A stretch of DNA of 64,000 nt, from NCBI RefSeq assembly GCF_017348835.2, contig NZ_CP071375.1. One strand, written 5' to 3'. Of the stretch, positions 42,001 to 45,000 are shown piece after piece. This DNA is from Escherichia coli. GTDB taxonomy: Bacteria > Pseudomonadota > Gammaproteobacteria > Enterobacterales > Enterobacteriaceae. How positions within the stretch are numbered: the stretch's first letter is position 1; each line of letters begins with the position of its first letter. Position numbers: made by a program.

Positions 42001-45000
42001 TTGTAGCCGAATTATTTTAGTCACCGGCTATCGTGGTAATGAACTGCACGAACGTTATGCGAACCAGAGCAATATTACTATTATTCACAACCCAAATTAT
42101 GCGCAGGGTTTACTAACATCAGTCAAGGCCGCAGTACCCGCAGTGCAAACAGAACATTGTTTTCTCACCCACGGTGACATGCCAACCCTCACCATTGATA
42201 TTTTTAGAAAAATCTGGTCGTTACGAAATGATGGCGCAATACTGCCACTCCATAATGGCATCCCCGGCCATCCGATTTTAGTGTCAAAACTATGCTTGAT
42301 GCAGGCAATCCAGCGACCCAATATCACCAATATGCGTCAGGCACTCCTTATGGGAGATCATTATTCCGTCGAAATAGAAAATGCAGAAATAATTTTAGAT
42401 ATTGATACTCCGGACGAGTTTATTACAGCGAAGAAAAGGTATACTGAAATTTAGAAAACGTAGTTAAACGATTGCGTTCAAATATTTAATCCCTCCAGCA
42501 CTCTTTATCATAATGATAAGGAATCACTGATTTTGAGAAAAGAGAAAAAGTGATAAATGGGCTGGCAATAATAATTTTCAGGAGTGATTTTAATTCTCAT
42601 TTAGCACCTGTGAGTTCATTCACAAAAAGCCCTTAAGTTTCGAGCCGCCTCACATTTTTTTATATTTCCCGCCAAACCTGGCAAGAGTGGTGCGATTGTT
42701 GCTCTATCCCCCTAAACCACCGGATTTCTCAACACCGGTCACTCAATGATATCTGTATAAGCTAAGGAGAGGGTTATGGGGGATATTATGCGTCCCATTC
42801 CGTTTGAGGAACTTTTGACGCGCATATTTGATGAATACCAACAACAACGCTCAATCTTTGGTATTCCCGAGCAACAGTTTTACTCACCCGTAAAAGGTAA
42901 AACTGTTAGCGTCTTCGGTGAAACCTGTGCCACTCCCGTCGGCCCTGCCGCTGGCCCGCACACGCAGCTCGCGCAAAATATTGTCACTTCCTGGCTGACT
43001 GGCGGACGCTTCATCGAACTAAAAACCGTCCAAATTCTTGACCGCCTGGAGCTGGAAAAGCCTTGTATCGATGCCGAAGACGAGTGCTTTAACACCGAAT
43101 GGTCTACCGAATTTACCCTGCTTAAAGCCTGGGATGAATACCTCAAAGCCTGGTTTGCCCTGCACCTTCTCGAAGCGATGTTCCAGCCTTCTGATTCCGG
43201 TAAATCGTTCATCTTTAATATGAGCGTCGGTTACAACCTTGAAGGTATTAAGCAACCGCCGATGCAACAGTTCATCGACAATATGATGGACGCATCTGAC
43301 CATCCGAAATTCGCGCAATATCGCGATACGCTGAATAAATTACTCCAGGATGACGCATTTTTAGCCCGCCACGGATTGCAGGAAAAACGCGAAAGCTTGC
43401 AAGCTTTACCCGCTCGCATCCCCACCAGTATGGTGCAGGGCGTCACCCTCTCCACCATGCACGGCTGTCCTCCGCATGAAATCGAAGCCATTTGCCGCTA
43501 CATGCTGGAAGAAAAAGGGCTCAACACCTTTGTCAAACTTAACCCGACCTTACTCGGGTACGCACGTGTTCGTGAGATCCTCGATGTCTGCGGTTTCGGT
43601 TACATAGGCTTAAAAGAAGAGTCATTTGATCACGACCTCAAGCTGACGCAAGCACTGGAAATGCTGGAACGCCTGATGGCACTGGCAAAAGAAAAATCAC
43701 TCGGCTTTGGCGTAAAACTGACTAACACTCTCGGCACCATCAACAATAAAGGCGCACTGCCCGGTGAAGAGATGTATATGTCAGGCCGTGCACTGTTCCC
43801 GCTCTCCATCAATGTTGCAGCAGTTCTCTCTCGCGCCTTTGACGGCAAACTGCCCATTTCTTATTCCGGTGGTGCCAGTCAGCTGACTATCCGCGATATT
43901 TTTGATACTGGTATTCGCCCTATCACGATGGCAACCGATCTGCTGAAACCTGGCGGCTATCTGCGCTTAAGTGCCTGCATGCGCGAGCTGGAAGGCTCCG
44001 ACGCCTGGGGACTTGACCATGTTGACGTCGAACGACTGAACAGACTGGCAGCAGACGCGTTAACCATGGAATACACCCAGAAACACTGGAAGCCAGAAGA
44101 GCGTATTGAAGTGGCAGAAGACCTGCCGCTGACCGACTGCTACGTTGCCCCCTGTGTTACTGCCTGCGCTATCAAGCAAGATATTCCGGAATACATCCGT
44201 CTGCTTGGCGAACACCGCTATGCCGACGCGCTGGAACTTATCTACCAACGCAACGCCCTGCCCGCCATTACCGGTCATATTTGCGATCACCAGTGCCAAT
44301 ACAACTGTACCCGCCTGGATTACGACAGTGCACTGAATATCCGCGAACTGAAAAAAGTCGCGCTGGAAAAAGGTTGGGATGAATATAAGCAACGTTGGCA
44401 CAAACCAGCCGGTTCTGGTTCACGCCATCCGGTTGCCGTGATTGGTGCAGGTCCGGCGGGTCTGGCAGCAGGTTACTTCCTTGCCAGAGCGGGCCATCCG
44501 GTTACGCTGTTTGAACGCGAAGCCAATGCGGGCGGCGTGGTGAAAAATATCATCCCTCAGTTCCGTATTCCTGCAGAGTTAATTCAGCACGATATCGATT
44601 TTGTTGCCGCTCACGGCGTGAAATTTGAGTATGGCTGCTCACCCGATTTGACCGTTGAACAGTTAAAAAATCAGGGCTTCCATTATGTTCTGATTGCAAC
44701 AGGCACCGATAAAAATAGCGGTGTGAAACTGGCGGGCGACAACCAAAATGTCTGGAAATCACTCCCCTTCCTGCGTGAATACAACAAGGGTACAGCGCTC
44801 AAGCTGGGCAAACATGTGGTCGTTGTCGGGGCGGGTAACACCGCAATGGACTGCGCTCGTGCGGCGTTACGCGTTCCAGGCGTAGAAAAAGCAACGATCG
44901 TTTACCGTCGTTCACTGCAAGAGATGCCCGCATGGCGCGAAGAGTATGAAGAAGCGTTGCACGACGGCGTGGAGTTCCGTTTCCTGAATAATCCGGAACG

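What the first reader, a model, noticed from the sequence alone, without database searches (positions are those of the whole stretch)
42679..42703. Second candidate sigma54 promoter, upstream of ygfK
TGGCAA-GAGTGG-TGCG (GG and GC at canonical spacing), with an overlapping register TGGTGC-GATTG-TTGCT, lies ~75-95 bp upstream of ygfK. If real, it would tie the ygfK-ssnA-ygfM-xdhD operon to the same sigma54 activator as ygeWXY and unify the two modules.
Basis: seen in the sequence. Interest (0 to 1): 0.4.

Follow-up and report, generated by a model that had tools for sequence, protein, structure and literature searches.

The report
Known sigma54 promoter of ygfK operon

Summary
They hold two overlapping GG-N10-GC registers.

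A sigma54 matrix built from 130 published sites outside this window scores it 14.5 bits, the training median, and ranks it 2nd of about 128,000 positions. It is conserved upstream of ygfK in about 76 of 80 gammaproteobacterial loci. It is the motif of ChIP-seq peak OS31 in Bonocora et al. 2015.
It is lost outside Escherichia. Zhao et al. 2010 had listed it, along with rpoN-dependent ygfK expression.

The promoter is therefore real but already known. The "same activator" idea is also in print, as the YgeV iModulon. I add support for it:

- A palindrome, TATCA-N3-TGAkA, lies in helical phase 110-215 bp upstream of the sigma54 sites of ygfK, ygeW, ygfT and xdhA.
- A conserved perfect CRP core lies between that palindrome and the ygfK promoter.

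Binding of YgeV to the palindrome is inferred, not shown.

The parts
42687..42703 (+). Sigma54 -24/-12 promoter element of ygfK (register R2): GTGGTGCGATTGTTGCT, GG at 42689-90, GC at 42701-02
   Evidence: Matrix score 14.46 bits, rank 2 in the window, p = 6e-6. Conserved in about 76 of 80 loci. Invariant block in the alignment of close relatives. Identical to the motif of ChIP-seq peak OS31.
42679..42694 (+). Register R1, TGGCAAGAGTGGTGCG: chance-level sigma54-like match overlapping R2.
   Evidence: 9.17 bits, about 18 such hits expected per window. In 76 loci this register has a median score of -15.7 and a maximum of 8.0, and is kept only in Escherichia-like loci. It already varies within Escherichia as TGGTAAG and TGGCAAT. 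Listed in PMC2831329.
42714..42714 (+). Predicted transcription start, 12 nt after the C of the -12 GC; leaves a 62-nt leader
   Evidence: Geometry. Same rule and same 62-bp distance as Bonocora Table 1. Not mapped experimentally in anything I could read.
42506..42518 (.). UAS1, palindrome TATCATAATGATA centred about -202; candidate enhancer site for the activator (YgeV inferred)
   Evidence: Present in all 73 non-Escherichia loci that have the sigma54 site, at discrete phased distances. Top hit in the window with the matrix learned from other genera. Invariant block.
42526..42540 (.). Second, half-conserved UAS element (conserved TTTTGAGAAA, right half TGAGA), centre 20 bp from UAS1
   Evidence: Conserved block in the 19-species alignment; coordinates. 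Its assignment as a second activator site is inference.
42584..42602 (.). Conserved block GTGATTTTAATTCTCATTT containing the half-site TTCTCA (about -120 to -115)
   Evidence: Conserved. AATTCTCAT is shared with the ygeW UAS region and the yqeC-internal site region. Function not tested.
42609..42624 (.). CRP site, TGTGAgttcatTCACA, perfect core, centre -97.5
   Evidence: The only perfect TGTGA-N6-TCACA in the 64-kb window. Present at the homologous place in 21 related loci, where it is the only perfect core in about 23 kb. ygfK is listed as a CRP genomic-SELEX target (PMC3105977). The pathway is glucose-repressed.
42639..42654 (.). Second, degenerate CRP-like element TTCGAgccgccTCACA, centre -67.5, 30 bp from the first
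   Evidence: Conserved TTyrGA...CTCACA block; coordinates. The CRP assignment is inference.
42714..42775 (+). Predicted 5' leader with a small stem-loop ACCGG-N11-CCGGT (42719-42739) and Shine-Dalgarno AAGGAG (42764-42769)
   Evidence: A 5-bp consensus hairpin in 12 Enterobacteriaceae with few compensatory changes. No Rfam match.
42776..45874 (+). ygfK coding sequence, first gene of ygfK-ssnA-ygfM-xdhD
   Evidence: ORF list and RefSeq annotation of an identical strain. YgfK is described as a flavin-dependent isoxanthine reductase in bioRxiv 10.1101/2025.05.19.654654.
32870..32886 (+). Sister sigma54 site of ygeW (CTGGCACACTTATTGTT); its UAS palindrome lies at 32657-32669 and a CRP-like site at 32812-32827
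   Evidence: Matrix rank 3; ChIP-seq OS30; UAS hit of 19.9 bits; CRP core with 1 mismatch.
57693..57709 (-). Sister sigma54 site of ygfT (TATGCCCGTTTATTGCA); its UAS palindrome lies at 57876-57888
   Evidence: ChIP-seq OS32; weak matrix score of 5.2; UAS hit of 18.9 bits lying 179 bp upstream.
26949..26965 (+). Sister sigma54 site of xdhA (CTGGCGTAAATCTTGCC); UAS-like sites lie at 26818-26830 and 26839-26851, 21 bp apart
   Evidence: Matrix rank 1; ChIP-seq OS29; UAS hits.

Best explanation
The stretch holds the sigma54 (RpoN) promoter of the ygfK-ssnA-ygfM-xdhD operon.

What is shown. The -24 GG (42689-90) and -12 GC (42701-02) of GTGGTGCGATTGTTGCT form a sigma54 site. It scores like real sites, is occupied by sigma54 in vivo in published ChIP-seq, and is conserved across Gammaproteobacteria. 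The other register, TGGCAAG..., is a lineage-specific coincidence.

What is inferred, step by step:
- RNA polymerase-sigma54 sits at this site as a closed complex. It should start at about 42714, leaving a 62-nt leader.
- It needs an AAA+ enhancer-binding protein to open the promoter.
- That protein is most likely YgeV (PAS, sigma54-interaction, AAA lid and Fis-type HTH domains), the only such activator encoded in the cluster.
- YgeV would bind the conserved palindrome TATCA-N3-TGAkA about 200 bp upstream, plus an adjacent half-site 20 bp away.
- It would reach the polymerase by DNA looping. The palindrome-to-promoter distance varies between species only in steps of about 10.5 bp.
- The loop interval holds no IHF consensus. 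It holds a conserved perfect CRP core at -97.5 and a CRP-like element at -67.5. cAMP-CRP probably supplies the bend and the glucose repression reported for the pathway.
- The same palindrome-plus-sigma54 module precedes ygeW, ygfT and xdhA, so the uricolytic genes would form one YgeV/sigma54/CRP regulon.
For: - Sequence and spacing.
- Matrix built without any site from this window: R2 scores 14.46 bits against a training median of 14.33. The three top hits of the whole window are the xdhA, ygfK and ygeW upstream sites. R2 has p = 6e-6 per position.
- Conservation: in 400 bp upstream of ygfK the best + strand hit is the homologous site in about 76 of 80 loci, mostly 13.4-19.8 bits and mostly 57-129 nt before the ATG. 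The - strand best is usually below 8 bits. Information content peaks exactly at TGG and TTGCT.
- Published occupancy: OS31, fold-above-threshold 26, same 17-mer, 62 bp to ygfK, already 'predicted' in EcoCyc.
- Published rpoN dependence of ygfK mRNA.
- UAS: palindrome found in 73 of 73 loci at about -163, -175, -184 or -195. A matrix learned from other genera picks the ygfK, ygeW, ygfT and xdhA upstream regions among the top 7 distinct sites of the window.
- Pairing across 1.7 Mb of related loci: 128 of 283 sigma54 hits carry the palindrome 60-300 bp upstream, against about 11 expected if independent. Of these, 57 are at promoters other than ygfK.
- Phasing: the distances show a 10.6-bp periodicity, R = 0.64. 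On distinct distance values only, 20 of 2000 random sets reach the observed value.
- CRP: with glucose repression. No IHF consensus in the interval.
- YgeV domains.
- Published grouping: the YgeV iModulon contains ygfK-ssnA-ygfM-xdhD, ygeWXY, xdhABC and ygfT. ygfT expression is reported lower in a ygeV mutant.
- No sigma70-like promoter on the + strand of 42300-42900.
Against: - No transcription start has been mapped, in anything I could read.
- Bonocora et al. stress that ChIP-seq shows binding sites, not necessarily productive promoters.
- The in vitro RpoN genomic SELEX lists the ygeV/ygeW spacer but not ygfK.
- The microarray effects on ygfK are small, about 2-fold.
- YgeV binding to the palindrome, and YgeV dependence of ygfK, are untested. 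Only 14 of 80 fetched loci reach a ygeV homologue, because ygeV lies more than 10 kb from ygfK, so co-occurrence could not be tested.
- The CRP role as a bending co-activator is inference. At some other sigma54 promoters CRP is inhibitory (own knowledge).
- Related loci are phylogenetically non-independent, which inflates the counts and the periodicity statistic.
Confidence: 0.85

Rival explanations
1. The functional -24/-12 element is register R1 (TGGCAAGAGTGGTGCG, 42679-42694), as tabulated by Zhao et al. 2010 and put first by the reader. R2 would then be incidental.
For: R1 has a better -24 half (TGGCA) and the correct GG-N10-GC spacing. Zhao et al. list it at -97 to -80. Its 9.2 bits is above the weakest ChIP-bound sites, whose training minimum is 7.2. 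ChIP-seq cannot resolve a 9-bp offset.
Against: About 18 equally good matches are expected per window. The register is absent outside Escherichia-like loci, with a median score of -15.7, and already carries substitutions in E. whittamii and E. coli E69. R2 is invariant over the same sequences. MEME on the ChIP-seq peaks chose R2. The peak centre lies 18 bp downstream of the R2 centre and would be 27 bp from the R1 centre.
Confidence: 0.04
2. Sigma54 holoenzyme binds here but the site is not a productive promoter under any condition. ygfK would be expressed by read-through from mocA or from an unrecognised sigma70 promoter.
For: Bonocora et al. caution that many of their 135 sites may never fire. 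No terminator-like structure follows mocA. No start site has been mapped. The RpoN SELEX does not list ygfK.
Against: A non-functional site would not be kept at the same place upstream of ygfK from Escherichia to Shewanella, together with a phased upstream palindrome. ygfK mRNA responds to rpoN deletion and to sigma54 induction. ygfK co-varies with the other sigma54-preceded operons in the YgeV iModulon. No sigma70-like promoter was found on the + strand.
Confidence: 0.08
3. The promoter is sigma54-dependent, but the conserved palindrome is bound by a different protein. The activator would be a bEBP other than YgeV, or YgeV would bind another of the conserved blocks.
For: No YgeV-DNA binding data exist in the library I could search. 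Several other conserved blocks are unassigned: 42465-42483, 42584-42602 and 42639-42654. Published work also ties YgeV to indole and virulence regulation.
Against: ygeV is the only sigma54-activator gene in the cluster. The strongest non-ygfK palindrome lies in the ygeV-ygeW spacer. The palindrome tracks sigma54 sites at helical-turn spacing, as expected for an enhancer-binding protein. ygfT, which carries the same palindrome, is reported to need ygeV.
Confidence: 0.12

Closest known systems
Sigma54 binding site OS31 (ygfK) of Bonocora et al. 2015, PLoS Genet 11:e1005552; also a 'predicted' ygfK sigma54 promoter in EcoCyc
   Same: It is the same object. The 17-mer GTGGTGCGATTGTTGCT is identical, on the same strand, with the same 62-bp distance from the predicted start to ygfK.
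   Different: Nothing differs for register R2.
Sigma54 promoters of ygeW (OS30), xdhA (OS29) and ygfT (OS32) in the same cluster
   Same: Each is a ChIP-seq sigma54 site. Each is preceded at 110-215 bp by the TATCA-N3-TGAkA palindrome. ygeW also has a CRP-like core between the palindrome and the promoter. All are in the published YgeV iModulon.
   Different: ygfK has the strongest ChIP signal of the four, with fold-above-threshold scores of 26 against 11, 3 and 3. It has an unusual -24 flank, TGGTGC rather than TGGCAC. It has a fully symmetric palindrome and a perfect CRP core.
prpBCDE promoter of E. coli/Salmonella (sigma54, PrpR, IHF, CRP-dependent catabolite repression); own knowledge, not checked here
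   Same: It is a catabolic sigma54 promoter with a divergently encoded or nearby activator that lacks a receiver domain, and it is subject to cAMP-CRP control.
   Different: prp uses IHF for bending. At ygfK no IHF consensus lies in the loop interval, and CRP sites occupy it instead. The activator gene is 10 kb away rather than adjacent.
glnAp2/NtrC paradigm of enhancer-dependent sigma54 activation (own knowledge)
   Same: A -24/-12 promoter, tandem activator sites more than 100 bp upstream spaced about two helical turns apart, and face-of-helix dependence.
   Different: The activator here has a PAS sensor domain rather than a phospho-receiver. The signal is unknown; urate or a purine is plausible.
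DioR sigma54 regulon of Clostridiales (Nie et al. 2019, PMC6615313)
   Same: Sigma54 plus a dedicated activator are predicted to control ygeW-ygfK-ssnA-ygeY, dpaL, yqeB/yqeC and related genes. Sigma54 control of this pathway therefore recurs across phyla.
   Different: It involves a different phylum, operon arrangement and UAS motif. Orthology between DioR and YgeV was not tested here.

Membership tests
Sigma54 (RpoN)-dependent promoter | GG at -24 and GC at -12, starting exactly 12 bases apart, on the coding strand upstream of the gene | tested here: met
   R2 has GG at 42689-90 and GC at 42701-02, on the + strand, 73-89 bp before the ygfK ATG. R1 also meets this minimal rule.
Sigma54 (RpoN)-dependent promoter | Overall match to the -24/-12 matrix comparable to experimentally bound sites and rare by chance | tested here: met
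   R2 scores 14.46 bits against a training median of 14.33, p = 6e-6, rank 2 in the window. R1 fails this test: 9.17 bits, below the 5th percentile, about 18 expected per window.
Sigma54 (RpoN)-dependent promoter | Conservation of the element at the orthologous position in other species | tested here: met
   About 76 of 80 loci carry it. R1 is not conserved.
Sigma54 (RpoN)-dependent promoter | Occupancy by sigma54 holoenzyme in vivo | not testable with these tools
   Published: ChIP-seq peak OS31, fold-above-threshold 26 (PMC4591121). The in vitro RpoN SELEX does not list it.
Sigma54 (RpoN)-dependent promoter | rpoN-dependent transcription starting about 12 nt downstream of the GC | not testable with these tools
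   Published microarray: 2.1-fold up on sigma54 induction and 2.4-fold down in an rpoN deletion (PMC2831329). I found no start-site mapping.
Sigma54 (RpoN)-dependent promoter | Upstream enhancer (UAS) for a bacterial enhancer-binding protein, with a bend between it and the promoter | tested here: met
   A conserved palindrome lies at about -202 with an adjacent half-site. Palindrome and sigma54 sites pair 128 times against about 11 expected. The spacing has a 10.6-bp periodicity. CRP core(s) lie in the interval. Protein binding itself was not tested.
YgeV regulon (uricolytic / purine cluster) | Shares a cis element with the other sigma54 promoters of the cluster | tested here: met
   A matrix learned from non-Escherichia ygfK regions finds the ygeW, ygfT and xdhA upstream regions among the top 7 distinct sites of the 64-kb window. 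The 12-mer CTCATATTGATA is shared by xdhA, ygeW and ygfT.
YgeV regulon (uricolytic / purine cluster) | Co-expression with the other members | not testable with these tools
   Published: the YgeV iModulon includes ygfK, ssnA, ygfM and xdhD.
YgeV regulon (uricolytic / purine cluster) | Loss of expression in a ygeV mutant; YgeV binding to the UAS | not tested
   Only ygfT is reported as reduced in a ygeV mutant (cited in PMC10602906). I found no YgeV DNA-binding data.
CRP-regulated promoter | TGTGA-N6-TCACA core, conserved, with CRP binding | tested here: met
   A perfect core lies at 42609-42624, the only one in the window. It is conserved in 21 related loci. ygfK is listed as a CRP genomic-SELEX target. 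A regulatory effect on ygfK was not tested; glucose repression of the pathway is reported.

The most novel reading that the evidence does not exclude
The ygfK promoter may be one copy of a so far undescribed, widely conserved regulatory module.
- A YgeV enhancer site, TATCA-N3-TGA(G/T)A, is kept in strict helical phase 110-215 bp upstream of each sigma54 promoter of the anaerobic urate/purine-degradation cluster (ygfK, ygeW, ygfT, xdhA and further promoters in other genera).
- cAMP-CRP, not IHF, would occupy the loop and act as the architectural co-activator that imposes glucose repression.

I found no description of a YgeV binding motif in the searchable literature. The sigma54 site itself, CRP binding near ygfK and the YgeV iModulon are all published.
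Probability: 0.5. Interest if true: 0.4.

Novelty: already known. Interest (0 to 1): 0.15.

Why it matters
The ygfK-ssnA-ygfM-xdhD operon encodes the reductive dearomatisation and ring-opening steps of anaerobic uric-acid degradation by gut bacteria. That pathway is under study for gout and hyperuricaemia, including engineered probiotics that bypass the native regulation.

Knowing that ygfK has its own sigma54 promoter explains why the genes are silent in ordinary cultures and repressed by glucose. The sigma54 site is already in the literature, so this finding adds no new biology by itself.

What my follow-up adds:
- It resolves which of the two published registers is the real one.
- It gives a concrete, testable candidate for the YgeV enhancer motif.
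- It suggests an architectural role for CRP.

These could guide rational de-repression of the pathway.

Tried and rejected
- **Consensus counting.** TGGCACG-N4-TTGCW with up to 3 mismatches gave 93 hits against 103 expected. It does not discriminate, so I replaced it with a matrix.
- **ygeV co-occurrence.** Only 14 of 80 fetched loci contain a ygeV homologue, because ygeV lies more than 10 kb from ygfK and the flank limit is 10 kb. This test is uninformative.
- **Rfam.** No match at E <= 1 over 42400-42850, so there is no known riboswitch or leader.
- **Leader structure.** A consensus fold across 23 diverse species gave no structure. Restricting to 12 Enterobacteriaceae gave only a 5-bp hairpin with weak covariation.
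- **IHF.** No consensus match with up to 1 mismatch lies between mocA and ygfK.
- **Sigma70 and terminators.** No + strand sigma70-like promoter and no terminator after mocA.
- **Literature gaps.** Reitzer & Schneider 2001, the likely source of the EcoCyc prediction, is not held in the library. Iwadate & Kato 2019 is also not held, so I cite it only through PMC10602906 and the Dodd-lab preprint.
- **First ygeV translation.** It failed because my coordinates were off by one; I corrected them from the ORF list.
- **R1 as the functional site.** Considered and rejected.
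Full report
**Where we are.** The window is E. coli chromosome. 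A 501-bp query around the finding matches 5,171 of 5,426 complete E. coli genomes, and the features under it are mocA and ygfK. The annotation of an identical strain gives this gene order: xdhABC, ygeV (opposite strand), ygeW-dpaL(ygeX)-ygeY-hyuA-arcC(yqeA), yqeB-yqeC (opposite strand), mocA, ygfK-ssnA-ygfM-xdhD, xanQ-guaD-ghxQ, ygfS-ygfT. In window coordinates mocA ends at 42454 and ygfK starts at 42776.

**The observation.** The string TGGCAAGAGTGGTGCGATTGTTGCT is at 42679-42703, 73-97 bp before the ATG. It contains two overlapping sigma54-type registers, each with GG and GC starting 12 bases apart.
- R1 is TGGCAAGAGTGGTGCG, 42679-42694.
- R2 is (G)TGGTGCGATTGTTGCT, 42687-42703.

**Is it more than chance?** Counting consensus matches with up to three mismatches is useless here: 93 hits against 103 expected. 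I therefore built a position weight matrix from the 135 sigma54 ChIP-seq motifs printed in Bonocora et al. 2015. I left out the five sites that lie in this window, so the test is not circular.
- R2 scores 14.46 bits, at the median of the training sites (14.33).
- R1 scores 9.17 bits, below their 5th percentile.
- Exact score distributions give p = 6e-6 per position for R2. That is 0.8 expected in the window on both strands and 0.002 in the intergenic + strand.
- For R1 they give p = 1.4e-4, about 18 expected per window.
- The three best hits of the whole window are the sites upstream of xdhA, ygfK (R2) and ygeW.

**Conservation.** One scan of representative bacterial genomes with YgfK returned 80 loci, from Escherichia, Citrobacter, Klebsiella, Serratia, Edwardsiella and Morganella to Aeromonas, Photobacterium, Vibrio, Shewanella and Ferrimonas.
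- In the 400 bp upstream of ygfK, the best + strand sigma54 hit is the R2 homologue in about 76 of 80 loci. Scores are mostly 13.4-19.8 bits and the site is mostly 57-129 nt before the ATG.
- The best - strand hit is usually below 8 bits.
- In an ungapped alignment anchored on the site, information content peaks exactly at TGG and TTGCT.
- The R1 register has a median score of -15.7 in these loci. It survives only in Escherichia-like sequences, where it already carries substitutions (TGGTAAG in E. whittamii, TGGCAAT in E. coli E69). R2 is invariant in the same sequences.

R2 is therefore the selected element and R1 is a lineage-specific coincidence.

**What is already published.**
- Bonocora et al. 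2015 (PMC4591121), Table 1, entry OS31: a sigma54 ChIP-seq peak with a fold-above-threshold score of 26, motif GTGGTGCGATTGTTGCT, + strand, downstream gene ygfK, 62 bp from the predicted start to the gene. It is flagged as already 'predicted' in EcoCyc. In the window the motif centre (42695) plus 19 gives 42714, which is 62 bp before 42776. It is the same site.
- The same table lists xdhA (OS29), ygeW (OS30) and ygfT (OS32). Table 2 lists a site inside yqeC (IS34).
- Zhao et al. 2010 (PMC2831329) list ygfK as 2.1-fold up on sigma54 induction and 2.4-fold down in an rpoN deletion. They print the R1 register as the putative promoter.
- The PRECISE-1K study defines a 'YgeV iModulon' that, as tabulated in PMC12133099, contains xdhABC, ygeWXY, hyuA, ygfK, ssnA, ygfM, xdhD, ygfT and uacT. 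It cites reduced ygfT expression in a ygeV mutant.
- A CRP genomic SELEX lists ygfK, ygeV<>ygeW and ygfT<>ygfU as CRP targets.
- An RpoN genomic SELEX lists the ygeV/ygeW spacer but not ygfK.
- In Clostridiales, sigma54 and an activator called DioR are predicted to control ygeW-ygfK-ssnA-ygeY.
- YgfK is now described as the flavin-dependent reductase that dearomatises isoxanthine in anaerobic urate degradation. The pathway is glucose-repressed.

**Anatomy of the promoter region.** An alignment of 19 Enterobacterales upstream regions shows discrete conserved blocks (coordinates):
- a perfect palindrome TATCATAATGATA (42506-42518, centre about -202);
- TTTTGAGAAA (42531-40), the right half of a second such site 20 bp away;
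- GTGATTTTAATTCTCATTT (42584-42602);
- TGTGAgttcatTCACA (42609-24, centre -97.5);
- TTCGAgccgccTCACA (42639-54, centre -67.5);
- the -24/-12 element;
- a short leader hairpin and a strong Shine-Dalgarno sequence.

**The palindrome as enhancer.** An iterative search finds TATCA-N3-TGATA upstream of the sigma54 site in all 73 non-Escherichia loci that have the site. The distances are discrete: about -163, -175, -184 and -195.

I scanned the E. coli window with the matrix learned from those other genera. The best distinct hits are:
- ygfK (21.8 bits);
- the ygeV-ygeW spacer, 213 bp upstream of the ygeW sigma54 site (19.9);
- the ygfT upstream region, 179 bp upstream of its site (18.9);
- a site in the AT-rich ETT2 island (15.9);
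- a site inside yqeC (14.8);
- the xdhA upstream region (14.2, with a second copy 21 bp away);
- a site inside dpaL (13.6).

Three of the six non-ygfK sites fall in the roughly 1.5% of the window that lies 60-300 bp upstream of another ChIP-seq sigma54 site. That is roughly a 1e-4 event by my own binomial estimate.

Independently, the 12-mer CTCATATTGATA is shared by the xdhA, ygeW and ygfT upstream regions.

Across 1.7 Mb of related loci, 128 of 283 sigma54 hits of at least 12.5 bits have the palindrome 60-300 bp upstream, against about 11 expected. Of these, 71 are at ygfK and 57 are elsewhere: the ygeW promoter, a promoter about 7.3 kb downstream of the ygfK start, and divergent promoters. 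The palindrome-to-promoter distances have a best period of 10.6 bp (R = 0.64). Using each distinct distance once gives R = 0.37, reached by 20 of 2000 random sets. Related sequences are not independent, so these figures overstate the significance. The multi-class, in-phase pattern is nevertheless what DNA looping by an enhancer-binding protein predicts.

**Who binds it.** YgeV has PAS, sigma54-interaction, AAA lid and Fis-type HTH domains and no receiver domain. It is the only such gene in the cluster. Assigning the palindrome to YgeV is an inference. I found no YgeV DNA-binding study.

**CRP.** The ygfK site is the only perfect TGTGA-N6-TCACA in the 64-kb window. In 21 related loci it is also the only perfect core in about 23 kb, at the homologous position. 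A one-mismatch core lies between the palindrome and the promoter of ygeW (32812-27). No IHF consensus with up to 1 mismatch lies between mocA and ygfK. Together with the SELEX result and glucose repression, this suggests that cAMP-CRP occupies the loop interval and couples the promoter to carbon status. The direction of the effect is not established.

**Mechanism, with status.**
- Shown by published data: a sigma54 site of normal quality, conserved and occupied in vivo; rpoN-responsive mRNA; CRP binding nearby in vitro.
- Shown here: the correct register; conservation; a shared, phased upstream palindrome; a conserved CRP core.
- Inferred: a start at about 42714; YgeV as the protein on the palindrome; looping assisted by CRP; one regulon for the whole uricolytic cluster.

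**Verdict.** The feature is real, ordinary in kind, and already known. Interest as a discovery is low. The candidate YgeV enhancer motif and the CRP-in-the-loop architecture are the only parts that may be new.

Noticed in passing
window 42506-42518; 32657-32669; 57876-57888; 26818-26830 and 26839-26851: The palindrome TATCA-N3-TGA(G/T)A recurs 110-215 bp upstream of the four intergenic sigma54 sites of the cluster (ygfK, ygeW, ygfT, xdhA). It also recurs at sigma54 sites in dozens of other genera, with distances in steps of about 10.5 bp. It is a candidate YgeV enhancer motif that I could not find described.
   Followed up: yes
window 42609-42624 and 42639-42654; also 32812-32827: A perfect CRP core (the only one in the window) and a second degenerate CRP-like element lie between the palindrome and the ygfK sigma54 promoter, at -97.5 and -67.5. 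A one-mismatch core sits in the equivalent interval of ygeW. No IHF consensus is present there.
   Followed up: partly
window 42465-42483: The conserved box TTAAACGATTGCGTTCAAA begins 11 nt after the mocA stop. It is kept at a fixed offset from the sigma54 site in 17 of 80 loci (Citrobacter, Trabulsiella, Buttiauxella, Serratia, Hafnia). It resembles a PurR-type operator, 11 of 16 to the consensus as I recall it. Its function is unknown.
   Followed up: partly
window 41356-41372 (- strand) and 41114-41130: A published intragenic sigma54 site (IS34) lies inside yqeC and points toward yqeB. A good UAS-like palindrome (TTCTCAATGTGAGAA) lies about 240 bp downstream of it, 160 bp upstream of the yqeB ATG. 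This may be a fifth regulated promoter or a downstream enhancer.
   Followed up: no
window 42719-42739: A small stem-loop, ACCGG-N11-CCGGT, sits at +6 to +26 of the predicted ygfK transcript. It is conserved as a 5-bp hairpin in Enterobacteriaceae with a few compensatory changes, and has no Rfam match. It may be a 5' stabilising hairpin or a protein site.
   Followed up: partly
window 34500-34516 and 4034-4050: Two further UAS-like palindromes have no sigma54 partner: one inside dpaL/ygeX and one in the AT-rich ETT2 type III secretion island. The latter is probably chance.
   Followed up: no
loci L013, L014, L016-L018, L020, L022, L028, about 7.1-7.8 kb downstream of the ygfK start; L036, L039, L045, L078, L059, L060, L077 upstream of ygfK on the opposite strand: In other genera the palindrome-plus-sigma54 module also precedes a gene downstream of the xdhD region (site TTGGCACAGCTTACGCA) and divergent genes next to ygfK. 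The regulon therefore seems larger and differently wired outside E. coli.
   Followed up: no
window about 1-25000: The first 25 kb of the window is the ETT2 type III secretion island (ygeG, ygeH and the sct/esc genes, with IS1 and pseudogenes in the reference strain). It is unrelated to the finding.
   Followed up: no
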